From positions 32,001-96,000 of the IMG/VR virus record IMGVR_UViG_3300036828_000667: a stretch of 64,000 bases of DNA. The stretch is one strand, 5' to 3'. Shown one piece after another: positions 2,279-36,295 of the stretch. Made by a program: the position numbers and the translations under genes. Numbering within the stretch: the stretch's first letter is position 1; every line of letters begins with the position of its first letter. This stretch comes from a virus. The notes under the pieces were generated by a model. The model saw only the letters and a list, made by a program, of their open reading frames with translations. It did no database searches and was not told where the DNA came from.

Positions 2279-2435
2279 AACCGCTCACCACACCTAACCC
2301 CAAGGGGAGGCTCTGGACGGGCTTTCCCGTGGCCCTGTGGGGGGTAGCTGGGGAGCCGGAAATCTGCACTGGCGGGCTTCTAAGCAGAGCCTGGACCCAC
2401 TTGCCATCCAATAGATCCATGGGGTAAGAACAATA

Positions 2436-2515
2436 TGCATACCGCCCCTCTCCAGGCCGCTGCACGGCATACCGAACCGCCCCTGCCCTGACCAAAGCAC
2501 ACCGCACCATACTTT
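2436..2515 (+). ncRNA. Pentamer-code unit (NCC/NGC-NN)n, stand-alone
   Basis: TGCAT ACCGC CCCTC TCCAG GCCGC TGCAC GGCAT ACCGA ACCGC CCCTG CCCTG ACCAA AGCAC ACCGC ACCAT ACTTT; upstream TTGCCA(2401)-N18-TAAGAA(2425). Confidence 0.75.
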
Positions 2516-2537
2516 CTCCCTTTTTCATCACCCAACT

Positions 2538-2906
2538 TTATTCCTTTTTATTGAGACAAGCCTTGTCATCAGGGTATCGGCCACAGAAAGCTTTTGCTTG
2601 TTCCATGATCCAATCACGTCCCTGGTCTTGTGACATATCTTTCCAGCTTTTAGTAACTGTCACGGTCTTAGTTCTGTATTGAATAGTAGGTTTAGGAGTA
2701 GGCTTAGGTTCACGGTATTCACGCTCACGATGATGAACTATCGGTCTGGTAGTATGGTGTCTTGGTTCAGATGTTGGCTGTCGTTCCCGATACTCAGGTT
2801 GCTGAAACGACTGCCAGCAGCCCCACATCCACTGTGGACAGTTCTGGGCGTGAACTGGGCTGACCCCAAACAGGATGAAGACAATAGCTCCGATGACTAC
2901 TTTCAT
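2538..2906 (-). CDS. Hypothetical secreted protein
   Basis: N-terminal signal peptide (MKVVIGAIVFILFGVSPVHA). Confidence 0.55.
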   Translation of the reverse strand: MKVVIGAIVFILFGVSPVHAQNCPQWMWGCWQSFQQPEYRERQPTSEPRHHTTRPIVHHREREYREPKPTPKPTIQYRTKTVTVTKSWKDMSQDQGRDWIMEQAKAFCGRYPDDKACLNKKE

Positions 2907-3014
2907 TTACTCACCAATCTGTCTTCAACCAAAGAAAAAGTAGATAAGCAAAAGAGCCAACACCACAAAAAACAATATAGGAAAAAAAATCGGATTATAG
3001 TTCATCTTATAATC

Positions 3015-3308
3015 CTAGCTCCCTATGATCTTCCACGCGGTTCCGTTATAATAAACTAAAACATGGTTTGACCCACCACCAACCACAACAGTCGAAACAG
3101 TAGTAACTGTCGCATCGGTCACAGGCATGACCATGCCCTCACTTGGTCCTACAGGTAAACCTGACACTAACCCAGCTACAGGAAAATCACATGTATTCAT
3201 ATTATGAAGAGTAGCTTTAAGCCCAGTAACATTAGTACTGGCGTAAATGTTTGGCGTAACGTTAGCTTCGATTTGTCCATCGATATCAGACTTTAGAAAA
3301 GCAGCCAT
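3015..3308 (-). CDS. Small tail-fibre-related protein
   Basis: C-terminal 'VLVYYNGTAWKIIG'; N-terminus resembles N-terminus of the 213-1670 tailspike. Confidence 0.55.
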   Translation of the reverse strand: MAAFLKSDIDGQIEANVTPNIYASTNVTGLKATLHNMNTCDFPVAGLVSGLPVGPSEGMVMPVTDATVTTVSTVVVGGGSNHVLVYYNGTAWKIIGS

Positions 3309-3509
3309 CTAGGTCTCCTTTTGTTGAGTCACGATCTTGGTGATTTCTCTAACAATCGAATGGTATGGACTACCATCATATTCTTCATTGAACTGATTAC
3401 TCAGTCCAACTGCCTCTTCTTTCGAATACGGTCCCTGACAGTTCATCACAGGTTTACTATCAGTATCATGATCAATAATGAGAATAACAAAAGCTGTTTC
3501 CAGTTTCAT
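3309..3509 (-). CDS. Hypothetical protein
   Basis: Tightly packed ORF in a minus-strand operon. Confidence 0.45.
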   Translation of the reverse strand: MKLETAFVILIIDHDTDSKPVMNCQGPYSKEEAVGLSNQFNEEYDGSPYHSIVREITKIVTQQKET

Positions 3510-3512
3510 GAT

Positions 3513-3953
3513 TTAGAAGTCCGCCCCCTGACACTCAATATCTATTTCTTTACCAGTACTTACAGCAGCAATCATACATCTGACCTGGAGAAGATCAGTT
3601 GGATTGAGAAACACAAAAGCCTGGCCAGTTTCGTCTAGTGGCAATGCTGATATGGAATTGAGTAGACTTACCGAAGGTACTGTGCCAATATATCCAGCAT
3701 TGGCTGGGACAGTCACAGTCCCAAGAGGTGTGAAGCCTACTGAGGAGGAGCCTTGATCTGTGATCCCAATCTGAATATCGTGTGCAGACGTATCGTTGTT
3801 GGACGCAATCACAGCATATACTTTGGTAGGGGCTGTACTTCCATTGGTAATTCCACCTAGAGCAACAGTAACTAGATTAAGAGCACTGGTGGGAAGTATC
3901 TTCCCTTTCTGACTCCAAGGAGTCTGTAACGCTGTTGGGACCATATTAACCAT
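3513..3953 (-). CDS. Putative virion structural protein
   Basis: Beta-rich, small-residue composition; GGAG RBS; context among tail genes. Confidence 0.5.
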   Translation of the reverse strand: MVNMVPTALQTPWSQKGKILPTSALNLVTVALGGITNGSTAPTKVYAVIASNNDTSAHDIQIGITDQGSSSVGFTPLGTVTVPANAGYIGTVPSVSLLNSISALPLDETGQAFVFLNPTDLLQVRCMIAAVSTGKEIDIECQGADF

Positions 3954-3997
3954 TAAAGTATCTCCATCTGTTTCAATTTACAGTTGGACTTTTTCAA

Positions 3998-4285
3998 TCA
4001 TGCGAGCCAAATCTCACTCCTATTGTCTAAGGTAATAAGCCCGCTATTAGAGATTGCTTCAATACGATGATATCCAAAAGAATACTTATCGTTTATTGGA
4101 TAACTGGGACAATCAATCTGATTAGAAGTAATCGTAATCCAGTCTCCGGCGTTGAAACCAGACGGAAGAACTGGTACCTTGTCTAGAACTATCTTCTTTA
4201 CAGGCATCAGGGAGCTTGCCCTGACAATAGCAGGAGCTACGAAGAGAGATCCCAATCCAATAAGAAGAGAACGACGAGCAATCAT
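3998..4285 (-). CDS. Small protein with twin-arginine (Tat)-like signal
   Basis: MIARRSLLIGLGSLFVAPAIVRASSLMPV. Confidence 0.55.
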   Translation of the reverse strand: MIARRSLLIGLGSLFVAPAIVRASSLMPVKKIVLDKVPVLPSGFNAGDWITITSNQIDCPSYPINDKYSFGYHRIEAISNSGLITLDNRSEIWLA

Positions 4286-4327
4286 GGCCTTTCCTTACAA
4301 CATTAGAAGAACCTTACCGGCATAACG

Positions 4328-7077: not shown

Positions 7078-7098
7078 ATTCTGTTTTTCCTCTGATGG

Positions 7099-7269
7099 TC
7101 AATCACGGATGAAACGCTGGATGACAAGTTGATTATTTGACAAGGATGCTTTATACCTACCGTCATCGCCAATCTTTTCACAGATTTGACGAGCCTCAGA
7201 ATCAGTAACACTGTCCTCCTTGATCCCAAGTTGAACTTTAGTCACGTGATCCGCTGACACTAGCACCAT
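7099..7269 (-). CDS. 56-aa hypothetical protein, paralog of the C-terminus of 7402-7920
   Basis: Read manually: MVLVSADHVTKVQLGIKEDSVTDSEARQICEKIGDDGRYKASLSNNQLVIQRFIRD. Confidence 0.55.
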   Translation of the reverse strand: MVLVSADHVTKVQLGIKEDSVTDSEARQICEKIGDDGRYKASLSNNQLVIQRFIRD

Positions 7270-7314
7270 GACCTAACATCCCTCTTGACTTTCAGACTGA
7301 CCTATGCTCACATC

Positions 7315-7386
7315 ACCACTTCACCCCGAACCGACCCGAACCATGCCACCCCGATCTGCACCCGTCCGCTCCATACCACACTTTTT
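7315..7386 (+). ncRNA. Pentamer-code unit, stand-alone
   Basis: ACCAC TTCAC CCCGA ACCGA CCCGA ACCAT GCCAC CCCGA TCTGC ACCCG TCCGC TCCAT ACCAC ACTTTTT; upstream TTGACT at 7285 (weak -10). Confidence 0.75.
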
Positions 7387-7401
7387 ATATCACACATATA
7401 T

Positions 7402-7920
7402 TCATTCGGCGGACCACTGGATGATAAGCTTGTCGTTAGATAGACCAGCCTTGAAACTGCGATTATTGGCGATTTGTTCGACTATCTGTCTGGCACGAAC
7501 AATGGTCACTTCTTTTTCCATGATTCCTAAAGCTTCACGAATAGACTTACCTACCCGCACCTTAATCATACCACTACTCCTTGTCGTGCCATCCGAATTC
7601 AACCTACGTCTCCACTCAAGATTACTAGGACGGTTATCAAACCTAATATCATTCAGATGTTTAGCCATATACCCAGGTTTTTTAACCTGTCCAGTGAACG
7701 CAGATAATATAAACCAATGAGAAAGGTAACGACGATAGTGTTTTATAACTACCAAATAACCATCAGGGGTAAGAGTTTGTATTCTAAGTTCTGTCTTCTC
7801 TACGACTCTATGGCCAACGATACCACCCGGTAACACTCTAATACGACCATGATCAGAAGCTTGGTGATAAGGCCAATCTGGAATGTCTTTCCAGATCTCA
7901 CCCTTGTGTCCCCGAATCAT
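7402..7920 (-). CDS. NUMOD4/HNH endonuclease (degenerate) fused to a small phage domain
   Basis: 'EIWKDIPDWPYHQASDHGRIR' NUMOD4; 'KHLNDIRFDNRPSNLEW' HNH. Confidence 0.7.
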   Translation of the reverse strand: MIRGHKGEIWKDIPDWPYHQASDHGRIRVLPGGIVGHRVVEKTELRIQTLTPDGYLVVIKHYRRYLSHWFILSAFTGQVKKPGYMAKHLNDIRFDNRPSNLEWRRRLNSDGTTRSSGMIKVRVGKSIREALGIMEKEVTIVRARQIVEQIANNRSFKAGLSNDKLIIQWSAE

Positions 7921-8137
7921 CTTTCATACTCATGGGGGGGGGTTCCGTATCACACCATTCGGAGTGAGCATGTAATAGATCACTCTCGGCTCGTGTGAAG
8001 AATATCGTCCCACCAAGGTCACGACCTAACAATTTCTCTGCTTCGTCCCGTGGAATGTAACCTATCGGCTTTTTGTCGTCATCGGTCGCAAAGACAGAGT
8101 TCTTCCAACTCTTTTCAATAACTAGCCATTCTCTCAT
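7898..8137 (-). CDS. Hypothetical protein
   Basis: ORF with GGGG-type RBS, operon packing. Confidence 0.45.
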   Translation of the reverse strand: MREWLVIEKSWKNSVFATDDDKKPIGYIPRDEAEKLLGRDLGGTIFFTRAESDLLHAHSEWCDTEPPPMSMKDDSGTQG

Positions 8138-8180
8138 CGGTCACCCCTTGACTTCCAAACCAACCCATGCTTACGTGACC

Positions 8181-8229
8181 GTCTATCCCATCCGAACCAG
8201 TCCAATCCTATCCTATGCACACCGCACAG
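8181..8229 (+). ncRNA. Pentamer-code unit, stand-alone
   Basis: GTCTA TCCCA TCCGA ACCAG TCCAA TCCTA TCCTA TGCAC ACCGC ACAG; TTGACT(8148)-N18-TACGTG(8172); hairpin follows. Confidence 0.75.
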
Positions 8230-8264
8230 AATGACCTAAGAGAAATCTTAGGTCATTCGCTTTT
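8229..8264 (+). terminator. Hairpin with GAAA tetraloop after pentamer unit
   Basis: GAATGACCTAAGA-GAAA-TCTTAGGTCATTC (perfect 13-bp stem) followed by GCTTTT. Confidence 0.75.
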
Positions 8265-8476
8265 CAATCAGTGTCATAACCATCTGCGCTATAGTAGTTA
8301 TTTTCGTGGTACGGACACTCTTCTCTCATGAGAGCTAAGCAACGGCGAATAGATGCACTGCTTGTCCCATAGGACTCAACCACGTGGTCGCACCTTGAAC
8401 AAGTAACCTTGACACTGGGAACTTCCCCGTGATCACCTTCCAATTCGATTTCATCTATGGTACATTTTACCTTCAT
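8264..8476 (-). CDS. Hypothetical Cys-containing protein
   Basis: CSRC and RRCL..MREECP motifs. Confidence 0.5.
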   Translation of the reverse strand: MKVKCTIDEIELEGDHGEVPSVKVTCSRCDHVVESYGTSSASIRRCLALMREECPYHENNYYSADGYDTD

Positions 8477-8728
8477 GGCGCATCGTCAGGCCAGTATTTG
8501 AACTGGTTCCTAGATTGCCAATTATATATAGGTTGCCAGATCCCAATCTTCGCTAGTAGCTTCAAATACAATGGAGCGGCAGCATGACAAGCAACTAGCA
8601 TCTGATCGTAATGATCGTTGTGAGCCTTGATCCGGTCAAGAAAGGGAGTCTCTCCCTTCGTATGTTCACCGATTGATCCCATATCCCCCTCCACTTGACT
8701 CACAAAGATTATTTGGCTACTATCCAAA

Positions 8729-8781
8729 CGCGAGCCAAACCGGTCCACTCCACGCCCCTCCTTCGCTTACCGATCCACACA
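8729..8781 (+). ncRNA. Pentamer-code unit, stand-alone
   Basis: CGCGA GCCAA ACCGG TCCAC TCCAC GCCCC TCCTT CGCTT ACCGA TCCAC ACA; promoter TTGACT(8695)-N17-TACTAT(8718). Confidence 0.75.
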
Positions 8782-8811
8782 GAATGGCCTGAGAGAAATC
8801 TTGGGCCATTC
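8782..8811 (+). terminator. Hairpin with GAAA tetraloop, homolog of the 8229 hairpin
   Basis: GAATGGCCTGAGA-GAAA-TCTTGGGCCATTC; 13 bp including two G.U pairs on the + strand. Confidence 0.7.
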
Positions 8812-8920
8812 GCTATTCCATTGCCTTCACGGTAAAGATTTCGTCAACCTGACCACCACACGTGCAAGGCCAGTATCTCATAATTTAGCATTTGCGTTCA
8901 CCACAAACCTTCGTCATTGT

Positions 8921-10384: not shown

Positions 10385-10396
10385 TCGATTCCTTCA

Positions 10397-10430
10397 ACCA
10401 GTGCACAGCGCAGCATACCGCACTTTTTAT
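10397..10430 (+). ncRNA. Partial pentamer-code unit (3' end only)
   Basis: ACCAG TGCAC AGCGC AGCAT ACCGC ACTTT TTAT; same downstream 'CTTTTTATATCAC' as the 7315 unit. Confidence 0.55.
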
Positions 10431-13467: not shown

Positions 13468-13493
13468 CACTCAGATTCGAAAGGTCAATAGAT

Positions 13494-13633
13494 AAAGTAT
13501 GGTGTGGTATGCTGCGGTGTGGTTCGAGGGGCCGCGGGCTGGTTTGGTTAGGGTTGCAGAACACAGTATGAACTAAAGTATGGTGCGGTATGCTGAGGAT
13601 TGCGATGGTCTGCGCTGGGTCGCTGTGCTAGGC
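13494..13633 (-). ncRNA. Two tandem pentamer-code units (13494-13557, 13575-13633)
   Basis: + strand AAAGTATGGTGTGGT... and AAAGTATGGTGCGGT... (reverse complement ends ACCRC ACCAT ACTTT); minus-strand promoter TTGACT(13668-63)-N17-TATGGC(13645-40). Confidence 0.75.
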
Positions 13634-14367
13634 AGACAAGCCATACCAAACGGTGGATTCGGAGTCAAGGGAGAATGACGATGATAATAGAGCTTCCTGT
13701 CACGATCGTTTGGGACTGGGAAGGCAACCGTTCCCTCGGTAAACATCGCAGGCTACGTCGGACATTCACAGTACGCATGAGCACCCAGGATGATGCTGGA
13801 CCACTAACTTATTGCACCGAATACCCACCTAGAGAGAATTCAAGATGGCAAGTCGACCATGGTGTACTATCGACATTGCTAAGCAATGAAGCTAATAGTG
13901 AAATATGCATGCGTGCGGTAGATGATCCAGAAGGCTATGAACCACAGTATCTAAAGGAGTAGTCAATGGGAACACGTAAGTCACCTAGTCGATTTGATGT
14001 GGATCTGTCAAAGTTGGACGAGGACGAACCTTTTTTTATACTCAGGGGCAATGACGAGTTGGCCGCAGAACTCGTTAGGGATGAATCACGATAAAGTTCT
14101 CGCGGCCTATCAATGTGCCGAAGACATGAGGAGGTGGAACAAGAGAAAGACACCAGACTAAACCTATTAATTTTTGGAGGGGAGAATGATTACTAGGAAA
14201 GAAGTGATTAAAAGACTACAGGATCAATTACAGTGGAGGTCCCACACCGGGAGATTGATGGGGCAAGTAATGGTACCAAGAGAGCATGCTGAGTTTATAA
14301 TAGAAAACTTGATCCATCTGACAGAGCTACATCCCAACGAGAAAACATTCTAAAATGGAGAGAACCA

Positions 14368-14877: not shown

Positions 14878-15183
14878 CTAGATCAGCGCTAGAAGGTTAC
14901 TGCCGAGAGCTATAGTGAAAAGGCTTCACCTAATCTTCGTCCTCACAGGTTTCAGGAGTACATAGGTAGCACTCTGTCCGTCGGTGGTGAATAAACCAGC
15001 ACCTTCCGCAGTACCACTTACCGTCGTCCCCCTTCATGGGTTGAGGCTTCTCGCAGTCCCGCGGACAGTGGTAGTGATCAGCTTTCATACTCACCGCTCC
15101 GCAGAGTTCGTCTTTGACCATAATTTAGGACAGCTTTCTCCGAAGAGGACCATCCTTCCTTACCCCATATCTCCATTAAGTAC

Positions 15184-15391
15184 AAAAGTATGGTGCGGTG
15201 TGCAGCGGTTAGGCATGGGATGGGCGGGCTGGCGACGGCGAGGCACGGGTTGCATTGGTGTGGGTTGGTAGGATAGAGGACAAAGGACCAGAAGATTAGA
15301 TATCCTCTGATCCTTTGAACAGATGTGCGGTTTGGTATGCTGTGGGCCGGCACGGCTGGGGGTGGCGCGGGAAGGCTTGGCATGGCTTGCA
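15184..15391 (-). ncRNA. Two tandem pentamer-code units (15321-15391, 15184-15273) separated by a hairpin (15281-15317)
   Basis: NN-GGN/GCN periodicity on + strand; promoter TTGACT(15426-21)-N17-TAGTCT(15403-15398) on minus strand; 16-bp stem with two G.U pairs on minus strand. Confidence 0.78.
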
Positions 15392-15433
15392 CCAAAAAGA
15401 CTACTACCAAACTTACCGCTAGTCAACCACTAT

Positions 15434-17805: not shown

Positions 17806-17848
17806 ACCAGTATAACAATGGGAGGCTACAATGAAAAAAAGTGTAAGT

Positions 17849-17877
17849 GGGGCTGGTGACTTACCACCAGCCCCTTT
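17849..17877. terminator. Intrinsic terminator-like hairpin (possibly bidirectional)
   Basis: GGGGCTGGTG-ACTTAC-CACCAGCCCC-TTT. Confidence 0.6.
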
Positions 17878-17907
17878 GGACTACGCTGTCTCTTATTCTC
17901 AGGGACT

Positions 17908-17974
17908 AAATTGTGCGGTTTGGCCTGCAGCGGAGCGGATAGGCTAGGTTCGGATAGGCAAGGAAAGGCGTGGT
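17908..17974 (-). ncRNA. Pentamer-code unit, stand-alone
   Basis: + strand TTGTGCGGTTTGGCCTGCAGCGGAGCGGATAGGCTAGGTTCGGATAGGCAAGGAAAGGCGTGGT; promoter TTGACA(18016-11)-N17-TAAGGG on minus strand. Confidence 0.75.
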
Positions 17975-18027
17975 ATGAACAATCACTCCCTTAGCCTAGC
18001 TCACAAAAGCTGTCAAGGTTCTTTTCG

Positions 18028-19871: not shown

Positions 19872-20376
19872 TTAAATCACCAGTTAGTTAAGTCAGTAAA
19901 AGACGAGGGGAGTATGAGGGGAGTTTTTCAATAGTTTGTCAATTCTACTTAGGTATAGGTTTATATCACACTATGTTACAAACTGTAAGAATGGGATATA
20001 CTTTAGACACGACAAAAAGCCCCATTAGACTATGTCTAGGGGTTTATGGTCATTTGGGGGTTGTTTTTAGGATGTAAGGAGGTGCTGTTGTGGATAGCCT
20101 CTTGGTTTTATCAGGCGCCTGATAAAATTCCCTGGATTACCTGCGGTGCACCACCGTAACCCAGTATGGTTAGGAGAATAGCTTCCCCCTGGAATACAGG
20201 GGCCTGCTCGTCTATTAAAGATCCACGGGCCAGACCGTCAGTCGCTGGATTTTTCTCACCGTGGTAGCAGCCATGGCAGTCGCCGTTAGGTCGGCCCCAT
20301 GGCACCGCTGTAACTCGCGGGTAAACGCATCTTCCATATTAGAAAACGAACTGCTAGTCAACATCACTTGGAGATA

Positions 20377-20438
20377 AAATTGTGCGGTATGGGATGCATG
20401 GGGCAGGTCCGGCAGGGTAAGCGTCGGGGTGGGGTGGA
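20377..20438 (-). ncRNA. Pentamer-code unit, stand-alone
   Basis: + strand ATTGTGCGGTATGGGATGCATGGGGCAGGTCCGGCAGGGTAAGCGTCGGGGTGGGGTGGA; promoter TTGACA(20474-69)-N17-TAATGA on minus strand. Confidence 0.75.
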
Positions 20439-20711
20439 CAAAGCTTCATTACTATCATTGCAATCCATTGTCAAGAAGTCTAAAATCAAGCCTCCCGTCC
20501 TCCCCTGGCTGGAGCATAGGATGAAAAAAGGCCCATATCGCAGAAGAACCCTTGTCAGAAAATACAGGTTTCATCCCTATGAGAATTTTGAGTCAGGTAA
20601 GGGATGGAACCTTCCCCATAACAGAAAAAGGGTAAAGAAACATCATGGTCCAGCACTAAATAAACTAGGTCAATTAAGACGTTTTTGGATTACTGTTACA
20701 AGAACATACAG

Positions 20712-24445: not shown

Positions 24446-24483
24446 AAGTCATCCTCTGTTTTTGAAATGACAGAGGATGACTT
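24446..24483. terminator. Perfect 14-bp hairpin at the 3' end of a minus-strand pentamer unit
   Basis: AAGTCATCCTCTGT-N10-ACAGAGGATGACTT. Confidence 0.65.
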
Positions 24484-24545
24484 GTGCGGTTTGGTTAGGA
24501 ATGCAGTGGCTCGGCAGGGTTCGCTTCGGTTTGGTATGGTTCGAA
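24482..24545 (-). ncRNA. Pentamer-code unit, stand-alone
   Basis: + strand TTGTGCGGTTTGGTTAGGAATGCAGTGGCTCGGCAGGGTTCGCTTCGGTTTGGTATGGTTCG; promoter TTGACA(24581-76)-N17-TACGTC on minus strand. Confidence 0.78.
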
Positions 24546-24565
24546 CATGCGGGACGTAGCAGAAC

Positions 24566-25183
24566 TTGACCGTCTTGTCAAATGGGTGCAAAATGTCCAA
24601 GAAGTTCTCAATATCAGTGGACCATAATGCATTAAGGCAATTTCCGTTTCTGGATCGACTCCAGAAACAACAATTCCCCATTTCAACCCTCAATGAAGTT
24701 ATGTACGTTCTTGAAAATAGACCTGAAGGATTCAAAATCGAGTTGGTTTATAGTGTATTGAAAGTGTCGTTAATTAACGTCAATAGAGACACCAATGACG
24801 ACTACTTGGGATTGCCGAAGATTGAAGGTCAGTTGAAAGACCTGTGTGATGTGATCAGAGAGACCACGTCATATGGAACACGTGGGGGAGTCGACCCAAG
24901 GACACAAATATATTATAGTAGGAAGTCGTCTATTCTACAGGGTAGTAACCTTAGTGATGATGCTCTGATAGCTCCTAATTATGTTTCTAATAGAGGTTTG
25001 AGAAAACGCCATCCTCTTGATCTTGTGTCCACAGAAGAGGTCGTTAAAAGAAGGGAACTTGCTAACCGACACTGGCAAGAACAGAAAAAAGAGCAACGAA
25101 GAAAACAACAGTCCAGTATCAACTCAAAAATCCGGAATGCTCAGGACTTTTTGACAAGAAGCAATTTTGACAAGAAGCAATAA
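24566..25183 (+). CDS. Hypothetical protein
   Basis: 205-aa ORF (start probably the internal Met). Confidence 0.5.
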   Translation: MTVLSNGCKMSKKFSISVDHNALRQFPFLDRLQKQQFPISTLNEVMYVLENRPEGFKIELVYSVLKVSLINVNRDTNDDYLGLPKIEGQLKDLCDVIRETTSYGTRGGVDPRTQIYYSRKSSILQGSNLSDDALIAPNYVSNRGLRKRHPLDLVSTEEVVKRRELANRHWQEQKKEQRRKQQSSINSKIRNAQDFLTRSNFDKKQ

Positions 25184-25195
25184 TAATGTTAACCT
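25167..25195 (+). promoter_or_regulatory. Sigma70-type promoter of a pentamer unit
   Basis: TTGACA(25167)-N17-TAACCT(25190); the -35 lies in a 16-bp tandem duplication TTTTGACAAGAAGCAA x2 (25149-25180). Confidence 0.7.
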
Positions 25196-25200
25196 TCTTC

Positions 25201-25265
25201 GGCGAACCGGTCCAATCCGAACCGACCCTATCCCTACCGGACCCTTGCACAGCATACCGCACATC
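25201..25265 (+). ncRNA. Pentamer-code unit, stand-alone
   Basis: GGCGA ACCGG TCCAA TCCGA ACCGA CCCTA TCCCT ACCGG ACCCT TGCAC AGCAT ACCGC ACATC. Confidence 0.8.
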
Positions 25266-25266
25266 T

Positions 25267-25308
25267 ACCCCTCAGGCTGTATTACACAGCCTGAGGGGTT
25301 ATTATTAT
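25267..25308 (+). terminator. Hairpin after pentamer unit
   Basis: ACCCCTCAGGCTGT-ATTAC-ACAGCCTGAGGGGT followed by TATTATTATT. Confidence 0.7.
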
Positions 25309-25321
25309 TAGGAGGTTAGAG

Positions 25322-25918
25322 ATGGTGACCAAAGAAATGGTAGATGAGTTCTGTAAGCATCTGATTGATGAAGGAAAGATCGTAGAAGCTGGGTGGCTAG
25401 GCTTTAAAATCATGGTGCTTGAACCTGTTGATCTCTCGGAGAATCAAGTCGAAGATATGAAAATGGCATTCTTTGGTGGTGCTTATCATCTGTTCACGTC
25501 GATGACAAGGATGTTAGACCCTGGCAAAGAGCCGTCAGACAATGACATAAAGCGTATAGATCAAATCAATACAGAGCTTGAAGCATTCGTAGGAGTGTTT
25601 GAAGAAGAGCTAAGGAAACGTCAACAGAAACCACCTATATCAGAAGATCCAGCACCAACTCTAGGTGATGCGCCTATCGAACAAGAGTATCGTAGTAAAA
25701 TGCAAGCTGTTGCCATGACCTTAGATAAATTCTTCAATGGCGAGCTTGAAGGAAACGACAGACACACCGGATTTGTCCTACTAGTATTCCCCTTTGAAGA
25801 AAGGGAAGGACGGTGTAACTTCATTTCAAATGGTGCTGATCGAGAGGATGTAGTCACACTTTTCAAAGAAATGATCCAAAAATTTTCTGGCCAACCAGAT
25901 ATAGTTGGACATGCTTAA
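25322..25918 (+). CDS. Two-domain hypothetical phage protein
   Basis: AGGAGG RBS; C-terminal half paralogous to 33986-34246. Confidence 0.6.
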   Translation: MVTKEMVDEFCKHLIDEGKIVEAGWLGFKIMVLEPVDLSENQVEDMKMAFFGGAYHLFTSMTRMLDPGKEPSDNDIKRIDQINTELEAFVGVFEEELRKRQQKPPISEDPAPTLGDAPIEQEYRSKMQAVAMTLDKFFNGELEGNDRHTGFVLLVFPFEEREGRCNFISNGADREDVVTLFKEMIQKFSGQPDIVGHA

Positions 25919-29328: not shown

Positions 29329-29329
29329 A

Positions 29330-30176: not shown

Positions 30177-30201
30177 CTACTAACCTGTAGGATTTATAAC
30201 A

Positions 30202-30531: not shown

Positions 30532-30811
30532 GAGCCTCACTGGTAAGTCTTTTAGGCCTGGAGGCCCTACCACCTGGCCTGTCCATAATTCGCGTCAGTG
30601 GGCTTCCAACAAAGAGGAGAGGGTAATGCGTTGCGATCGGTGTCAGGGAACAGGCTGGGATCGGGCAGGAGTACACCCTGTACTTGGGCCGCTCTTCGAT
30701 TGCAACCATCCGTGTACTGAATGCGGCGGGTCAGGCATCGCCCACTGTTGCGACGGCATCTGCGAACAGCCTTCAATTGACAAGTCTATAGATGACAAGC
30801 TAACATCTTGA

Positions 30812-30884
30812 CGCCTACCGTACCACTCCGACGCCAACCACACCGAGCCGGTCCATACCTTTCCAAACCAAACCACACTTTTTT
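30812..30884 (+). ncRNA. Pentamer-code unit, stand-alone
   Basis: CGCCT ACCGT ACCAC TCCGA CGCCA ACCAC ACCGA GCCGG TCCAT ACCTT TCCAA ACCAA ACCAC ACTTT TTT; TTGACA(30777)-N18-TAACAT(30801). Confidence 0.8.
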
Positions 30885-31409
30885 ATTACTACTAGATATT
30901 CAGGAAAGGCGAACATGAGAGGTTAGGTTAAACTAACTTCGTTCTTCCTTTAGCTCAGCTACAAACTTCTTAATCAGAGTTGTTAAGGTTGGAGTGTGCT
31001 TAGCTGGAAAGTTACCAGCAAGTACCTTGGCAATAGCATACCGAATTACCTTAAACTCTTCCTCAGTTAGCTCCAACGTTATCACTAGGCACCTCGCCTT
31101 TCTTTATCACGCTAACCTTACTATCATCGATCTTCAGAGTAAACCTCTTATTATCCACAACTTCTCGCCATCTATTTTCCTCAATATAAGCACAGGCTTT
31201 AAGGTAGTCCGTCAAACAAAAAACATGAGTATGTATCTGTGACCAACACGGATGCTCACGGCATAAGTGTTCAATCTTGGCGGCTAACTCCCTGAGTGGT
31301 GATTGCATACCCAACCTCCCTTTTGTGTGACCATAAAGTTACACTTAAATTGAATCTGATTCTGGGAATTGACCTGCCAAGGCTGATAGGCGAAAACTCA
31401 TATTGCAAG

Positions 31410-31479
31410 GTCGAACCGCTGCCTTGCTTGCCAAACCGGGCCAAGCCGGCGCGGACCAAACCTCCGCACACCGCACAAT
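31410..31479 (+). ncRNA. Pentamer-code unit in the leader of the Cas7-like gene
   Basis: GTCGA ACCGC TGCCT TGCTT GCCAA ACCGG GCCAA GCCGG CGCGG ACCAA ACCTC CGCAC ACCGC ACAAT; followed by a 13-bp hairpin at 31477-31514. Confidence 0.8.
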
Positions 31480-31533
31480 GGGAGTAGTCAAATGGCTTGC
31501 AGACTACTCCCATTAACACAGGAGTAAAACAAC

Positions 31534-32175
31534 ATGCTAATTTCAGTCACGATCTCCGGAATCCGACCTTTAATCCTCGACGCGTTTTCCGAGGAAGCGT
31601 TGCTTAAGGGGAAGGGAGGAAAGAGTACAGCCCAGCCCAAGGAACTGAGTCCCTTGGATCAAGCCAAGCGTAGGTTATACTATAATGGAGATGGTACCGA
31701 CGTTCCTATATTCCCAGCAGACAACCTACTCAGCTGTATCATCGCTGCCGGGCGGTTTATCAAGGTCGGGAAAAGGCAACTAACTACTCGCGACAGTACG
31801 ACAGTAACTTCATTCCTACAGATATCAGAACTATATCTTCCCATTAGGTCGATAGATGGATGGCGAGTCGACTCCAGGAGCATCGTCAACCCGTCTACAA
31901 AAGGTCGTCACATATGCTACCGTCCCATCTTTGACGACTGGGAGTTAGATTTCACGCTCGACATCGATACGAATGAAGCGAGCGACAGCTTGGTTAGACA
32001 GTTGATTGATAGAGCAGGTAGGTTTATCGGGATCGGGGTCATGCGGCCCGAAAGGAAGCGGCAGTATGGGCAATACGTGGTGCGCTGCTGGGATTGCCGT
32101 TCAGAACATGAAGAGCTTGACAACATACCAAAACTTGCTAAGAAAACTAAGACTAGATCGAAAGAACTAGTCTAA
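31534..32175 (+). CDS. Cas7/RAMP-like putative RNA-guided effector protein
   Basis: Beta1 'ISVTISGIRPLIL'; 'PIFPADNLLSCIIAAG' (RAMP P.IP...LK motif); 'RPIFDDWELDFTL'; C-terminal Gly-rich loop 'GIGVMRPERKRQYGQY'; GGAG RBS; flanked by pentamer units. Confidence 0.7.
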   Translation: MLISVTISGIRPLILDAFSEEALLKGKGGKSTAQPKELSPLDQAKRRLYYNGDGTDVPIFPADNLLSCIIAAGRFIKVGKRQLTTRDSTTVTSFLQISELYLPIRSIDGWRVDSRSIVNPSTKGRHICYRPIFDDWELDFTLDIDTNEASDSLVRQLIDRAGRFIGIGVMRPERKRQYGQYVVRCWDCRSEHEELDNIPKLAKKTKTRSKELV

Positions 32176-32186
32176 CACTGGTTCAT

Positions 32187-33422
32187 CGCGGACCGTACCG
32201 GAGCGTGCCATGCCCGTCCCCGCCGAGCCCGACCAAACCAGACCCAACCTACGCGGACCCAGCCTATCCTTAGCGTAGCACACCGCACAGTTAAGGCCAA
32301 AACCAGAAGGAAGGAGATACGGAAATGAAACCACGCATCTCCTTCCTTCAAACCCAAGTTTCGAACAATCCATGCCACTGCAAACCGCGCCAGCCCTATG
32401 CCTACCACTGTGAACCGCTCCACACCATTCTTTTATCAATTATCAAGTCAACACTCCGAACCAGACCCCGCCTTACCCAACAGCACCCCACCAAACCGGA
32501 CCGACCCACTCCAATGTGCACCTCAGCAGACCGAAGCACACCATACTTTATCAATTGCCTTCCCGACCCGAGCTATGCCCAACCGACCCGACCCACTCCG
32601 GGCCGCACCCCTCCCTCCCATCCCGCAGCACACCATACTTTATTTCATTACGACTCTCCGGCCCTACGCCAACCACACCAGCCCGGAGCGTGCCATACCG
32701 CACCATACTTTTATCATTTCAATGCGCACCGTCCCTCACCGTGCCATCTCTCACCCGACCATACCATCCCTCCCCACCTCGGCCCGGACCCCGCCGATGC
32801 AAACCACACCATACTTTATCAATTTTCAGAACCATCCCGACCGTACCAGTGCGCGCCATTCCAATGCAGCCCTCGCCTCCGCATGTCAGGCCGCCCCGAC
32901 CCATGCCGCACCAAACCACACTTTCTTTATCAACTAAGGAGAACCAGCATGACCACACATCGTCCCACATTCGAAGACTGGCAGCTAGACTTCACTTTGG
33001 ATTATAATGAAACTGAAATAGATGAAGGTACTATACGTAAGCTAATCGAAGTAGTAGCTGGAACGCACATAGGACTTGGCTCTATGCGCCCAGAACGACA
33101 TGGACCCTATGGACAGTTTAAGATCAAGGAATGGACTCCACATTCTTAGTCTTATCCATCTCTGCTTACCGTAGCCCTCATCACCGCACCCGTGAGCACC
33201 GACCCATGCCTGAGCCTACCTCAGCATACCCAACCGCAGCAACCCGGTGCGAACCAAACCACACTATTTTTTATACAATTTCAACTTACCGTCCCGGCCC
33301 GAGCCAGTCCATCGTGCGCCGACCCGTCGCTCCCCATACCGCACTATACTTTATTCATTACCAACCATGCCATACCATGCCATTCCGGAACGCTGCCCTC
33401 CGGTCCACACCACACTTTCTTT
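32187..33422 (+). repeat. Array of 10 pentamer-code units (candidate guide-RNA array)
   Basis: Units at about 32187-32289, 32369-32434, 32455-32549, 32557-32641, 32657-32712, 32723-32817, 32830-32928, 33163-33272, 33283-33352 and 33364-33422; each (NCC/NGC-NN)n, most ending in an ACCAT-ACTTT-like tail plus an AT-rich linker. Confidence 0.88.
32949..33149 (+). CDS. 66-aa mini-paralog of the C-terminal third of the Cas7-like protein
   Basis: AAGGAG RBS; MTTHRPTFEDWQLDFTLDYNETEIDEGTIRKLIEVVAGTHIGLGSMRPERHGPYGQFKIKEW aligns with RPIFDDWELDFTLDIDTNEASDSLVRQLIDRAGRFIGIGVMRPERKRQYGQYVVRCW. Confidence 0.75.
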   Translation: MTTHRPTFEDWQLDFTLDYNETEIDEGTIRKLIEVVAGTHIGLGSMRPERHGPYGQFKIKEWTPHS

Positions 33423-33436
33423 AGGAGTTTAACCAG

Positions 33437-33682
33437 ATGGCAAAGGTAACTGGTATTGACGGTAAAAGCTTTATCAAAGGTCAACGTTTTGGTAAGCTAG
33501 TTGCGGTACGTCCACTAGGCTGGAGTAGTGACCGCAGCTGGTGTTGGCTATGTAAGTGTGATTGCGGCAATGAGACTATCTTAAGTGCTAACAGACTTCG
33601 AAGTGGTGAAGTTCAAGCTTGTGGATACGCTGTAACTATAAAATCAGACACAAATGAGGAACACTGTAACGGACAGATATAA
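33437..33682 (+). CDS. Truncated HNH-associated N-terminal domain
   Basis: 'GQRFGKLVAV...WLCKCDCGNE.......LRSG..QACG' with no nuclease domain. Confidence 0.55.
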   Translation: MAKVTGIDGKSFIKGQRFGKLVAVRPLGWSSDRSWCWLCKCDCGNETILSANRLRSGEVQACGYAVTIKSDTNEEHCNGQI

Positions 33683-33996
33683 TGACAAAGCCTACCATTA
33701 CTGTCAAACAGAATCCCAATGAAGGTGACGTAGCTGACTTCGTAGTTTGTCACCGTGTTTCTGTGCTACCTATCCCGTACGTGTCAGCTGAGATCCAACA
33801 TTGCTCCAGATGTAACGAAAGGATATGGGTTGCAAACACCTCTCCATCTAAGCCTCCTAAACTATGCTGGGAATGTTCAATTCCTCTAATTGCCAAAGAC
33901 GACGATACAAGAATAATGATTACCGAACGGCAACGGGCAGAGGTTCAGAAGTATATGCAACTAGTCCAGAAACTCCAGGAGAAAAATGAAAAGTGA
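33682..33996 (+). CDS. Hypothetical Zn-finger protein
   Basis: CSRC...CWEC. Confidence 0.5.
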   Translation: MTKPTITVKQNPNEGDVADFVVCHRVSVLPIPYVSAEIQHCSRCNERIWVANTSPSKPPKLCWECSIPLIAKDDDTRIMITERQRAEVQKYMQLVQKLQEKNEK

Positions 33997-34246
33997 ACGT
34001 CATAAGATGCTCGAAATAGCCATGAGGTATCTCGACAGACTATTCAACGGTAATGATAAAACAATAGAAAAAAGCACTGGAATTGTATTACTTACGTTCT
34101 CCTTTACTGACGAAGATGGTAATCATTGCGGTGATGACAATGGGACTATCATCACCAATGGCATAGAAAGGGAACACATTGTAGGCATTATGGAAGCAAT
34201 GCTAGAAAGACTGAAGGCAGACGATATACTTTTCAGACGACATTAA
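33986..34246 (+). CDS. Hypothetical protein
   Basis: Paralog of the C-terminal half of 25322-25918. Confidence 0.55.
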   Translation: MKSERHKMLEIAMRYLDRLFNGNDKTIEKSTGIVLLTFSFTDEDGNHCGDDNGTIITNGIEREHIVGIMEAMLERLKADDILFRRH

Positions 34247-34252
34247 AGACCT

Positions 34253-34771
34253 TTAAGTAGCATCATAGGCAAACTCACCAGCCAAACGTTTGGAAGCTTC
34301 CTCATACGCCTGAACCGCCTCTTCTACTGTGTTAAAGGTACCGATCTGAACGTCTTTATACATATGTTTTATTCTAGCCTCCCATTTTCCTGTGCTTTTC
34401 TTGTACCTTACTCCCTTAAAACCACTTGTATTATTTTTGAACATAGGACGATTGTAGCAATTCTGCTGTGTCGTCGCTGGACGAAGATTAGTCCATATAT
34501 TGTTACCTGGATTTAGATCCTTATGATCTATCTCATAATTAGGCCATTCTCCTGTCACATATAACCATATAATACGATGTACTTGATACATTCTGCCATT
34601 AACTTTTACCTGTATACGTCCTCCTTTCTTAATAGAACCCGCCGTACTTCCAATAACAATCCTCCAGTTTAACGCCTCCTTCCATGTAAGTATACCAGTT
34701 TCAGGATCATAGTTAAAAATCTGCCTAACAAACTCAGCTGTTAGACTATTGTTATAGATACGAGTCCCCAT
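34253..34771 (-). CDS. HNH-AP2 homing endonuclease
   Basis: 'VHRIIW...IDHKDLNPGNN..NLR' plus AP2 motif. Confidence 0.9.
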   Translation of the reverse strand: MGTRIYNNSLTAEFVRQIFNYDPETGILTWKEALNWRIVIGSTAGSIKKGGRIQVKVNGRMYQVHRIIWLYVTGEWPNYEIDHKDLNPGNNIWTNLRPATTQQNCYNRPMFKNNTSGFKGVRYKKSTGKWEARIKHMYKDVQIGTFNTVEEAVQAYEEASKRLAGEFAYDAT

Positions 34772-34773
34772 TT

Positions 34774-34977
34774 TTACGCTCCTGTAGTGGCAGCCTTTAC
34801 TGCCCAATGAACAGCCTCTTCATAAGCGGTTTGTGCTAAGGACGCTAACCTAGCATCTTTCGATTTCAGAGTTTCACATAGGTCGATCAACTCAGCAGAC
34901 TTTTGCTTGATCTCATCAACTATAGTATCTGCACTTGGATTAAATGCAGTCCGAACTCGTTGTTCACCGATTGTCAT
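34774..34977 (-). CDS. Acb2/Tad1-like helical-hairpin protein (putative anti-defence nucleotide sponge)
   Basis: 'RLASLAQTAYEEAVHWAVKAAT' C-terminal helix pattern; AGGAG RBS. Confidence 0.5.
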   Translation of the reverse strand: MTIGEQRVRTAFNPSADTIVDEIKQKSAELIDLCETLKSKDARLASLAQTAYEEAVHWAVKAATTGA

Positions 34978-35024
34978 AGTACTCTCCTCTTGACAAGTTC
35001 ACCTTGTTACACCTACGATGATTA

Positions 35025-35083
35025 CTCGAACCGACCCCGTCCAGGCCACTCCTCCGCCCACCGACGCAAACCGCACAATTTTA
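35025..35083 (+). ncRNA. Pentamer-code unit, stand-alone
   Basis: CTCGA ACCGA CCCCG TCCAG GCCAC TCCTC CGCCC ACCGA CGCAA ACCGC ACAAT TTT; TTGACA(34990)-N18-TACGAT(35014). Confidence 0.8.
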
Positions 35084-35372
35084 TATCCTACCATTTTCCA
35101 CTACTTAGTTGGCTAGCAATAAGTCAAGCGTATAATTCTAAGACCCTACAAGACATACAAATGGGAACGTCCTAAAACCCGCAACAGAAAGTCCCGATCA
35201 TGCTAAGCATGGGCGACAAGGTAATAAAGGACACTGGCGACTATACTTTTTCGGGTGTCGTCATCGCAGTATTCCTAAAACGCAATGGTACTGCTGTAAG
35301 GTATGTAGTAGAGAACGAAGAAGGTATCTGCCACATATTCAACGACCGCCAAATTAGAAAGGTTTAATTTAT

Positions 35373-35615
35373 GTGAAGAAGTGTGACTATGCACATCAAG
35401 AAAGGTACAGAAGAGTGACAAAGGCAGAACTGACTTGTAGCGTATGCGGCAAACGTTATGAAACTCTAGGAGACTATGGGGACGACGTTGACTGCCAAAT
35501 GATCTGTTTTCGCTGCTTCGAACAAGCTGATGCCATCTCTGCTCAGCAGAATCGCTGGCCTGATGGTCGAGACTTTCGTTACTTACGAGATATGAAAAAG
35601 CATCATCAAAAGTAG
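35373..35615 (+). CDS. Hypothetical Zn-ribbon protein
   Basis: CSVC...CFRC. Confidence 0.45.
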   Translation: MKKCDYAHQERYRRVTKAELTCSVCGKRYETLGDYGDDVDCQMICFRCFEQADAISAQQNRWPDGRDFRYLRDMKKHHQK

Positions 35616-35650
35616 ACCACACAATTACCATAATCAGATTATACAAACTA

Positions 35651-35750
35651 ACCATACCGAGCCGAGCCGTTGCCGCACCATACTTTATCAATTTGATTCC
35701 CACCACACCTCCCCGGACCTATCCAGCCCCCTGCAAACCGCACCATACTT
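35651..35750 (+). ncRNA. Two short tandem pentamer-code units (35651-35686, 35697-35750)
   Basis: Both end CCGC ACCAT ACTT; same TATCAATT linker as in the main array. Confidence 0.7.
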
Positions 35751-35766
35751 ACTTGTAATATAAATA

Positions 35767-36075
35767 TCAGTGAGTGTAGCTAGACTGACCATGCCCATCA
35801 GCATCCAATTCTTCACTAATTTCGTTGATCTCAATAGACAGCATTTTACCAAACTCACTAAAAGCTTCCGGCCTATCCTCAGTCGAGGTAGCTCCAACAA
35901 TTGCTCTAGCAACTACTTCACAAAGCACAGAACTAAGTTCCTCATAGTCAATTTGATCTCCTGGACTACCGTCCGGGTTTCCATTACGGCGATAAAAATC
36001 CGTAATGACTTCATTGAAAAAACAGCTAAGACATTCGCGTTCCCTACCGTCATCCGCTTTGATCTTATGTGCCAT
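35767..36075 (-). CDS. Hypothetical protein
   Basis: AGGAGG RBS. Confidence 0.55.
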   Translation of the reverse strand: MAHKIKADDGRERECLSCFFNEVITDFYRRNGNPDGSPGDQIDYEELSSVLCEVVARAIVGATSTEDRPEAFSEFGKMLSIEINEISEELDADGHGQSSYTH

Positions 36076-36159
36076 ATTTAAACCTCCTACCTTTCACAGA
36101 ACCGCTATACTTTATCCATAATCCACACTTAGTGATTTAGAAGTCAGCCAAGAGTTCTC

Positions 36160-36295
36160 TGCGTACCGACTCTTTCCGGACCGGACTGTACCACACTATA
36201 CCATACCTCACCTACCCATACCTCGCCTAACCACGCCTTTGCGACCCGGAGCGTGCCTCGCCTACCCAATGCGACCCTGACCACAGCACACAATT
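36160..36295 (+). ncRNA. Long pentamer-code unit (about 27 pentamers)
   Basis: TGCGT ACCGA CTCTT TCCGG ACCGG ACTGT ACCAC ACTAT ACCAT ACCTC ... ACCAC AGCAC ACAAT. Confidence 0.75.

What the first reader, a model, noticed from the sequence alone, without database searches (positions are those of the whole stretch)
2401..36295. About 19 further pentamer units are dispersed over 34 kb as promoter-unit-(hairpin) mini-genes
The same unit type occurs at 2436, 7315, 8181, 8729, 10397 (partial), 13494 and 13575 (-), 15184 and 15321 (-), 17908 (-), 20377 (-), 24482 (-), 25201, 30812, 31410, 35025, 35651, 35697 and 36160. Most singletons and pairs have a sigma70-like promoter ending shortly before the first pentamer. 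Examples: TTGACT-N17-TACTAT (8695), TTGACT-N17-TATGGC (13668 -), TTGACT-N17-TAGTCT (15426 -), TTGACA-N17-TAAGGG (18016 -), TTGACA-N17-TAATGA (20474 -), TTGACA-N17-TACGTC (24581 -), TTGACA-N17-TAACCT (25167), TTGACA-N18-TAACAT (30777), TTGACA-N18-TACGAT (34990). This suggests a genome-wide, host-RNAP-driven (probably early) repertoire of small guide RNAs supplied in trans to one effector. No clear unit was seen in the replication block beyond 36.3 kb.
Basis: partly seen in the sequence, partly recalled or inferred. Interest (0 to 1): 0.9.

Follow-up and report, generated by a model that had tools for sequence, protein, structure and literature searches.

The report
Scattered VIPR guide-RNA genes in a phage
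The scattered five-base-repeat units are real: they are stand-alone guide-RNA genes of a VIPR system (a CRISPR-like phage system first described in 2026), and several sit next to the phage's own synonymously recoded copy of the gene they spell.

Summary
Observation confirmed. All 19 listed units exist, and two more lie outside the window. Each is 8-26 tandem pentamers N-N-N-[C>G]-C ending in ACC(G/A)CAC.

TTGAC[A/T] lies 32-44 nt upstream of 14 of 17 cluster-leading units, mostly followed after 17-18 nt by TA, often with an upstream TG.

The single effector is the 213-aa ORF at 31534-32175. Its family profile hits the solved SUSP1 Vipr protein (E 1.3e-14) and its model has a Csm3/Cas7 fold. 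The system is therefore VIPR (bioRxiv 10.64898/2026.04.26.720920). This scan has noted VIPR in hundreds of other genomes.

Three things go beyond the four papers I read:
- About 20 promoter-driven solo guides sit in a phage that keeps its own vipr.
- The repeat is NNN-CC on the vipr-sense strand, not GGY-NN.
- Seven units have their best genome-wide match under the published rule within 500 nt, in a neighbouring gene. First and second codon bases agree 73% and 84%. Third bases agree 27%, less than codon usage predicts (z -3.1).

My reading: trans-acting guides aimed at rival alleles, each linked to an immune resident allele. This is inferred. I found no RNA data and no external target.

The parts
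2401..2515 (+). Solo vrRNA gene: weak -35-like TTGCCA (2401), 15 pentamers 2434-2508, tail ACCGCACC-ATACTTT
   Evidence: no own-genome match
7285..7386 (+). Solo vrRNA gene: TTGACT (7285), about 13 pentamers to 7377, tail ACCACAC-TTTTT
8148..8265 (+). Solo vrRNA gene: TTGACT (8148), 8 pentamers 8184-8223, tail, hairpin 8229-8258 plus T-run. Spells YHE(S/N)NYY of the adjacent gene 8264-8476(-)
   Evidence: NN 14/16, local p<0.005
8695..8818 (+). Solo vrRNA gene: TTGACT-N17-TACTAT, 10 pentamers 8727-8776, tail, hairpin 8782-8811 (homologous to the one at 8229, pairing kept). Partial match to codons 7-16 of the divergent gene ending at 8473
   Evidence: The match is seen only at amino-acid level (NN local p 0.18)
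10385..10430 (+). Degenerate or partial unit: about 5 pentamers plus ACCGCAC-TTTTT, no promoter
13487..13668 (-). Two-unit cassette: TTGACT-N17-TATGGC, then units 13636-13582 and 13560-13501, each with tail ...CACC-ATACTTT
15181..15426 (-). Two-unit cassette: TTGACT-N17-TAGTCT, unit 15393-15329, hairpin, unit 15271-15192. The first unit matches 10 codons (KMKFATQVGT) of the adjacent gene 15434-15847(-) at 20/20 first and second bases and 2/10 third bases
   Evidence: NN 22/26, above all shuffles
17820..18016 (-). Solo vrRNA gene: TTGACA-N17-TAAGGG, 12 pentamers 17976-17917, tail, then a GC-rich hairpin plus T7 run further downstream
20374..20474 (-). Solo vrRNA gene: TTGACA-N17-TAATGA, 11 pentamers 20440-20386, tail ACCGCACA-ATTTT
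24447..24581 (-). Solo vrRNA gene: TTGACA-N17-TACGTC, 11 pentamers 24542-24488, tail, hairpin
25151..25310 (+). Solo vrRNA gene: tandem TTGACA (25151, 25167), TG-extended TAACCT, 12 pentamers 25199-25258, tail, 14-bp hairpin 25267-25299
30777..30885 (+). Solo vrRNA gene: TTGACA-N18-TAACAT, 13 pentamers 30810-30874, tail ACCACAC-TTTTTT
31369..31512 (+). Leader vrRNA of the vipr operon: TTGACC, 12 pentamers 31413-31472, tail, hairpin without T-run, then the vipr ribosome-binding site. Spells vipr residues EALLKGKGGKST (31594-31629) 12/12 with Leu and Ser codon blocks switched
   Evidence: NN 20/24, above shuffles
31534..32175 (+). vipr: 213-aa RAMP effector of the phrog_4652 family
32185..33424 (+). 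Main vrRNA array, 10-11 units (context, a separate finding). It is interrupted by a 66-aa vipr C-terminal fragment at 32949-33149. The first unit, 32185-32284, spells the vipr G-loop (32026-32085), 17/20 residues
34990..35082 (+). Solo vrRNA gene: TTGACA-N18-TACGAT, 9 pentamers 35028-35072, tail ACCGCACA-ATTTT
35645..35752 (+). Two short units (about 6 and 9 pentamers), each ending GCACC-ATACTT. No TTGAC upstream
36158..36300 (+). Long unit, 26 pentamers, with no TTGAC and an atypical tail. Its 3' half matches 36417-36455 (23/26 NN), the antisense strand of the C-terminal codons of ORF 36353-38278(-), with the skipped base again on the wobble position

Best explanation
The dispersed units are stand-alone ('solo') vrRNA genes of a VIPR system. 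Each cluster is transcribed by the host RNA polymerase from its own TTGACA / (TG)TA-type promoter. The product would be a C-rich RNA of about 60-140 nt, made of N-N-N-[C>G]-C repeats and capped by the 3' motif ACC(G/A)CAC. By homology with the SUSP1 system, one copy of the single Vipr protein (31534-32175) binds each repeat, hides the fixed bases and presents the variable ones. The filament then binds double-stranded DNA whose codons match, with the gap falling on the wobble position, and blocks transcription. At least seven guides spell a conserved peptide of a gene lying within 500 nt. The resident copy differs at nearly all third codon bases, and in Leu, Arg and Ser codon blocks. I therefore infer that the real targets are alleles of those genes in co-infecting relatives, and that each guide is linked to an immune resident allele (weapon plus antidote). 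Shown here: the units, the promoter motif association, Vipr homology and fold, the conserved operon layout, and the codon-phased near-self matches. Inferred: transcription, loading onto Vipr, DNA silencing, the rival-allele targets and the immunity.
For: Vipr identity: a family profile of 38 sequences hits PDB 36pp_D 'SUSP1 Vipr protein' at E 1.3e-14 with the YRPIF.DW and G.G..RP motifs aligned. The AF2 model has pLDDT 85 and its top Foldseek hits are Csm3/Cas7. Layout: one unit upstream and an array downstream of vipr on the same strand, as in SUSP1. The same holds in 2 IMG/VR and 26 metagenome relatives; a unit ends 14-42 nt before the vipr ATG in 17 loci. Repeat grammar grades from NNNGC in the 41-44%-identity relatives L084, L086 and L088 to NNNCC here. 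Promoters: 14 of 17 leading units. Code: own-genome search by the published 1-nt-skip rule gives NN matches of 0.79-0.88 that exceed (four units) or equal (two units) every shuffle, with seven best hits under 500 nt away. Position identities are 85/116, 97/116 and 31/116. Recoding: identical codons 13 of 68 against 24.9 expected, z -3.1. Published mechanism and precedent for solo guides, vipr-targeting guides at the start and end of vipr, and lower self-match: 10.64898/2026.04.26.720920.720927 and 10.64898/2026.10.15.759431.
Against: No external target was found for any unit, so 'rival allele' is inference. Among 28 vipr alleles with DNA in hand, the resident is still the best match of the vipr-directed guide (0.85 against 0.80). 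Under the published rule, which ignores the third base, guide 15393 is a perfect 10-repeat match to the phage's own gene. That would be self-silencing unless the third base is read, and this is untested. No vap accessory gene was recognised. The -10 hexamers are weak, and the generic scan calls only 3 of the promoters.
Confidence: 0.6

Rival explanations
1. Autoregulation. The guides are meant to bind the phage's own neighbouring genes (NN match 0.8-1.0) and shut them off once Vipr accumulates. This would be a programmable temporal switch rather than a weapon.
For: The best matches genome-wide are the adjacent resident genes. Guide 15393 matches its neighbour 20/20 at the positions the published rule reads. 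Two guides flank and match vipr itself, which would give negative feedback.
Against: It does not explain why third bases keep the codon's purine/pyrimidine class (34 of 36 in two-fold boxes) yet avoid identity with the resident (z -3.1). It does not explain the 15-20% NN mismatches, which fall on switched Leu/Arg/Ser blocks and conservative substitutions. Target sites sit mid-gene or at 3' ends in several cases. The published systems show no self hits at 80% or above.
Confidence: 0.2
2. The functional RNA is the opposite, G-rich strand (GG-NNN, the published 'NNNGG' type). The TTGACA motifs are then not the guides' promoters.
For: All published repeat variants are written with G (GGY, NNNGG, YNNNG, NNNNG). 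A consensus-like promoter on the minus strand at 33707-33679 points into the array.
Against: TTGAC occurs once per cluster at the C-strand 5' end, not once per unit. The unit lies between promoter and vipr ribosome-binding site in 17 relatives, so the vipr-sense strand must be transcribed. The per-unit conserved motif would then be a 5' head rather than the 3' tail seen in SUSP1. Terminator-like hairpins with T-runs are on the C strand. Relatives with NNNGC on the vipr strand bridge to the published YNNNG type.
Confidence: 0.1
3. Anti-VIPR decoys. The solo RNAs mainly soak up or redirect the Vipr protein of a competing phage, as satellite solo vrRNAs do, rather than arming the phage's own Vipr.
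For: Precedent in F5 satellites and VIPR-null phages (10.64898/2026.10.15.759431).
Against: This phage has an intact, conserved vipr. The solo units share the exact tail motif of its own array. Their variable bases look like in-frame codons (stops 9 against 17.6 expected), not repeat-element decoys.
Confidence: 0.08

Closest known systems
Type II VIPR of Escherichia phage SUSP1 (Vipr + vap1 + YNNGG vrRNAs; bioRxiv 10.64898/2026.04.26.720920 and .720927; PDB 36pp)
   Same: Homologous RAMP effector. Pentamer-repeat RNA with a conserved 3' end. One guide upstream and an array downstream of vipr on the vipr strand. A TTGACA-type promoter before the leader guide. Matches phased so that the gap falls on the wobble base.
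   Different: Only profile-level protein similarity. The fixed bases are [C>G]C preceded by a free base, instead of GGY. The SUSP1 residues reported to contact the guanines, D177 and W178, are V and M here, while R138 and R179 are kept (paper 2). The tail is about 10-20 nt with no evident pseudoknot. No vap gene was recognised. Tracts have 8-26 repeats against 9-16. About 20 guides lie outside the locus.
Solo/orphan vrRNAs of F5 satellites and VIPR-null SUSP1-like phages (bioRxiv 10.64898/2026.10.15.759431)
   Same: vrRNA genes that stand away from vipr and act in trans. Some target the first codons and the end of vipr. Self-match is lower than match to rivals.
   Different: The published ones are 1-2 per genome, at the deleted VIPR locus or in satellites that lack vipr. 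Here about 20 are scattered over 50 kb of a vipr-positive phage. Most leading units have their own promoter, and at least seven lie next to the resident homologue of what they spell.
Non-canonical VIPR arrays (GAC/NN, CAC/NN, WGT/NN, TGH/NN) in the Evo-PIN survey (bioRxiv 10.64898/2026.10.21.760802)
   Same: They show that the fixed trinucleotide can differ from GGY while a Vipr-like fold stays adjacent.
   Different: An N-[C/G]-C / NN motif is not among the examples named in the text I could read (figures are not held). Those are arrays next to vipr, not dispersed mini-genes.
Free-standing homing endonucleases and marker exclusion in T-even phages (analogy from general knowledge, not tested)
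   Same: A weapon gene sits beside the gene whose rival allele it attacks, and the resident allele is immune through silent polymorphisms.
   Different: Here the weapon would be an RNA guide for a DNA-binding filament. No nuclease link is shown.

Membership tests
VIPR system | Vipr protein: minimal single-RRM RAMP homologous to characterised Vipr | tested here: met
   Profile A1 against the PDB gives 36pp_D SUSP1 Vipr, E 1.3e-14, as the only hit at E <= 0.001 (the next is E 0.5). The AF2 model's top Foldseek hits are Csm3/Cas7, E about 2e-6. Pfam and PADLOC give no hit.
VIPR system | vrRNA made of tandem pentanucleotide repeats with fixed and variable positions | tested here: met
   379 in-phase pentamers. 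Position 5 is C (the scan required it) and position 4 is C 81% or G 19% (the scan required C or G). Positions 1-3 are variable. The motif is not GGY. Relatives grade to NNNGC, which is the published YNNNG.
VIPR system | Invariant 3' tail after the repeat tract | tested here: met
   28 tracts end in [A/C/T]CC(G/A)CAC, followed by C-ATACTTT or by A plus a hairpin or ATTT. A SUSP1-type pseudoknot was not seen. No structure test was run.
VIPR system | vrRNAs flank vipr in one transcription unit | tested here: met
   Window and most of the 28 related loci that have flanking sequence.
VIPR system | vap accessory gene next to vipr | tested here: inconclusive
   Neighbouring ORFs have no homologue in the relatives' loci. 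The 81-aa ORF at 33437-33682 hits only part of an 'HNH endonuclease' PHROG.
VIPR system | Noncontiguous code: two bases read, one target base skipped, skip on the wobble position | tested here: met
   Identity by triplet position against adjacent genes is 73%, 84% and 27%. The antisense match of unit 36158 is also wobble-aligned. Whether the third base is truly ignored in this clade is open.
VIPR system | vrRNAs expressed and bound by Vipr; DNA binding and silencing | not testable with these tools
   No RNA holder was listed for this DNA.
Solo vrRNA | vrRNA gene with the family tail but no adjacent vipr or vap | tested here: met
   18 listed units (15 loci) in the window and 2 outside lie 2.8-47 kb from vipr.
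CRISPR array or mini-array | Identical direct repeats of 25-40 nt separating unique spacers; cas genes | tested here: not met
   No such repeats were seen. The periodicity is 5 nt. No Rfam family reaches its gathering score.

The most novel reading that the evidence does not exclude
In this VIPR clade all three variable bases of each NNN-CC repeat are read. The base that SUSP1 Vipr sequesters as G1 has been freed. Guides can then tell apart alleles that encode the same peptide. Each solo guide is physically linked to a synonymously recoded, immune resident allele. The phage would thus carry eight or more RNA-guided weapon-antidote modules that exclude, or drive into, the homologous genes of co-infecting relatives.
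Probability: 0.3. Interest if true: 0.8.

Novelty: new variant of a known kind. Interest (0 to 1): 0.55.

Why it matters
VIPR was described only in 2026, and its natural biology is known mainly from one E. coli phage and its satellite. This soil phage suggests a different deployment. One effector is served by about 30 guides, two thirds of them scattered as independent promoter-driven genes, and several sit beside a recoded copy of their own target.

If the linkage is functional, it would be an RNA-guided form of marker exclusion between related phages. It would also bear on how mosaic phage genomes are policed.

The codon-aware third base raises a cheaply testable question. Some Vipr clades may read three bases per repeat instead of two. 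That would change the targeting rule used both to predict natural targets and to reprogram the system.

Tried and rejected
**External targets: none found.**
- Exact NNx patterns from five guides gave no hit in viral contigs or genome contigs. A further pattern gave two chance hits in unrelated genes.
- An all-against-all guide search over 28 related loci gave no hit above shuffles except unit A on distant vipr alleles, at 0.80.
- Relatives of target gene 15434-15847 in IMG/VR are at most 45% identical and uninformative.
- Close protein homologues of that gene exist (P0096 93% down to P0099 80%).

**Expression:** no RNA holder is listed. Only two soil-metagenome DNA runs hold the stretch, and they may be its source.

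**Near relatives:** there is no phage record near this genome. The best DNA-polymerase match is 30% identical.

**Readings considered early and dropped:**
- a Rho or TRAP-like protein sponge;
- quintuplet translation;
- G-quadruplex or i-motif DNA;
- boxA-like antitermination sites;
- pentapeptide-repeat genes. This last explains other period-5 hits (L031, L032, L042, L059) but not these units.

**Other negatives:**
- No Rfam family reaches its gathering score, and there are no tRNAs.
- Stop-codon depletion was not reproduced in the relatives' arrays (22 against 26.4 expected, p 0.14).
- Leu/Arg/Ser block switching (6 of 8 against 3.8 expected) is a trend only.


Full report
**What is there**

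The window is bases 32001-96000 of a 113,838-bp phage genome with 43% G+C. The genome comes from soil metagenomes and has no near relative among deposited phages.

It finds nothing beyond 36.3 kb of the window. Two more units lie outside the window, at genome 16673 and 20549.

Each unit is 8-26 tandem pentamers. Over 379 in-phase pentamers, position 4 is C in 81% and G in 19%, and positions 1-3 vary. The scan itself required C at position 5 and C or G at position 4. 28 tracts end in [A/C/T]CC(G/A)CAC. This motif is followed either by C-ATACTTT or by A plus a hairpin or ATTT. The site at 10397 is a short degenerate remnant.

**Promoters and strand**

TTGAC occurs about once per 710 nt on each strand. 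It nevertheless lies 32-44 nt upstream of the first pentamer in 14 of 17 cluster-leading units, and it is absent before second units of pairs and before interior array units. Aligned on TTGAC, most sequences show TA after 17-18 nt, and by my reading of the alignment about 9 of 14 also have an upstream TG, as in an extended -10.

The generic promoter scan accepts only three of these sites because the -10 hexamers are weak. The promoter reading therefore rests on the positional statistics.

Independent support for the transcribed strand comes from relatives. In 2 IMG/VR and 26 metagenome loci that encode the same protein family, units lie on the coding strand of that gene. In 17 of them a unit ends 14-42 nt before the gene's start codon, so the unit must be part of its mRNA leader.

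**What it is**

The 213-aa ORF at 31534-32175 belongs to a family with 95 clusters in the metagenome protein set. A profile of 38 members hits one solved structure, 'SUSP1 Vipr protein' (36pp_D), at E 1.3e-14. The AlphaFold model (pLDDT 85) is a RAMP whose best structural matches are Csm3/Cas7.

VIPR systems were described in 2026. Vipr protomers polymerise on a guide RNA (vrRNA) made of 9-16 GGY-NN repeats plus a 3' tail. They hide GGY and present NN. The complex binds double-stranded DNA while skipping every third target base, usually the wobble base, and silences transcription of rival phages and satellites (10.64898/2026.04.26.720920 and .720927).

I read the SUSP1 locus directly. It has a TTGACA promoter, a leader vrRNA, vipr, and a downstream array, all on one strand. 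The layout here is the same. Solo vrRNAs that work in trans are also published (10.64898/2026.10.15.759431). This scan has already noted VIPR in hundreds of other genomes.

**How this one differs**

*1. The repeat.* On the vipr-sense strand the repeat is NNN-[C>G]-C, not GGY-NN. Relatives at 41-44% protein identity (L084, L086, L088) have NNN-G-C, the published 'YNNNG' form. Relatives at 51-64% have C in 50-77% of cases at that position. The invariant C would correspond to the Y of GGY.

Consistent with this, the SUSP1 residues reported to hold the pyrimidine and G2 (R179, R138) are conserved. Those reported to contact the guanines (D177, W178) are V and M here (paper text). Other non-GGY motifs have been reported (10.64898/2026.10.21.760802). 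Non-GGY scaffolds have also been noted by this scan.

*2. The number and spread of solo guides.* About 20 guide genes lie outside the locus, spread over roughly 50 kb of a phage that still has vipr. Most leading units have their own promoter.

*3. Guides that spell their neighbours.* A lead from earlier notes of this scan, which I re-tested, is that many guides spell their neighbouring gene.
- Read as codons, the three variable bases of unit 32185 give 17 of 20 residues of the Vipr glycine-rich loop.
- Unit 31413 gives 12 of 12 residues near the Vipr N-terminus.
- Units at genome 16673, genome 20549, 8184 and 15393 each give a peptide of the adjacent gene.

The same alignments come out of a search that uses only the two bases read under the published rule, so they do not depend on the third base. 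NN matches of 0.79-0.88 exceed (four units) or equal (two units) every shuffle. Seven of 29 units have their genome-wide best hit less than 500 nt away.

Unit 36158 matches the antisense strand of the last codons of ORF 36353-38278, again with the gap on the wobble base. Both orientations therefore occur, as published. The matched genes have no known function.

**The third base**

Against the resident genes, identity is 73% at triplet position 1, 84% at position 2 and 27% at position 3. The third base is nonetheless not free.
- In-phase stop triplets are half as frequent as expected if third bases are shuffled: 9 against 17.6, p 0.0005. The signal comes from the dispersed units: 8 against 15.9, p 0.003.
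- Where the first two bases agree, the third keeps the purine/pyrimidine class of the resident codon in 34 of 36 two-fold boxes, but in only 13 of 29 four-fold boxes.
- Among 68 codon pairs that encode the same residue, only 13 are identical, against 24.9 expected from the two codon usages (z -3.1).
- Guide 15393 matches its neighbour at 20 of 20 first and second bases over ten codons, but at 2 of 10 third bases.

This is the pattern expected if a guide copies, base for base, an allele that encodes the same peptide as the resident gene while the resident avoids it. It is not what a two-base code alone predicts. The stop depletion was not reproduced in the relatives' arrays, so the point remains open.

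**Mechanism proposed**

Host polymerase transcribes each cassette. The RNAs load onto the one Vipr. The filaments bind and silence matching DNA.

I infer that the intended targets are alleles in co-infecting relatives, and that linkage of a guide to a recoded resident allele keeps weapon and antidote together during recombination. The published observation that vipr-directed guides hit the start and the end of vipr, and match self less well than rivals, fits units 31413 and 32185.

The main rival reading is autoregulation of the phage's own genes. It explains the adjacency but not the third-base pattern. A G-strand reading is unlikely given the operon evidence.

**Limits**

No RNA data exist for this phage. 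No external target was found by any search. No vap gene was recognised.

**Verdict**

The system is a known one, VIPR. This is a new variant in three respects: the repeat motif, the deployment of dispersed promoter-driven solo guides in a vipr-positive phage, and the linkage to recoded near-self targets. It also raises a testable possibility that the third base is read.

Noticed in passing
window 32949-33149 (+): A 66-aa ORF that is the C-terminal third of a second, diverged vipr (phrog_4652, E 1.9e-9) sits inside the guide array. It looks like a remnant of a second locus or of recombination between arrays.
   Followed up: partly
window 34253-34807 (-) and 33437-33682 (+): An HNH_3 + AP2 ORF, typical of free-standing homing endonucleases, lies 0.8 kb from the array. 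The 81-aa ORF right after the array hits only an N-terminal part of an 'HNH endonuclease' PHROG. Either could be an accessory (vap-like) partner, but no relative shares them.
   Followed up: partly
window 25322-25918 (+) and 33986-34246 (+): The same domain of unknown function (phrog_35296) occurs twice, once just downstream of solo guide 25199 and once downstream of the array.
   Followed up: no
window about 7933-7941: A run of nine G lies at the junction of two minus-strand ORFs (7402-7920 and 7898-8137). It could be a slippage or frameshift site, or a homopolymer assembly error.
   Followed up: no
window 2281-2400: A GC-rich 120-nt stretch sits in a 43% G+C genome, directly upstream of guide 2434. 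It shows no fold signal on either strand (z 0.1 and 0.4) and has no Rfam hit.
   Followed up: partly
window 33707-33679 (-): A consensus-like promoter (TTGACA-N17-CATTAT with TG) on the minus strand points back into the array. If active, it would give antisense G-rich RNA.
   Followed up: no
L075:4580-4700 and L076:3960-4080: In two related metagenome loci a pentamer tract with the family tail lies inside or at the end of a zinc-finger ORF (CPWCG motif) downstream of the array.
   Followed up: no
window 12259-12332 (+): A C-rich tract with weak 5-nt phasing (score 6 of 10) has no tail motif and no promoter. It is probably not a unit.
   Followed up: no
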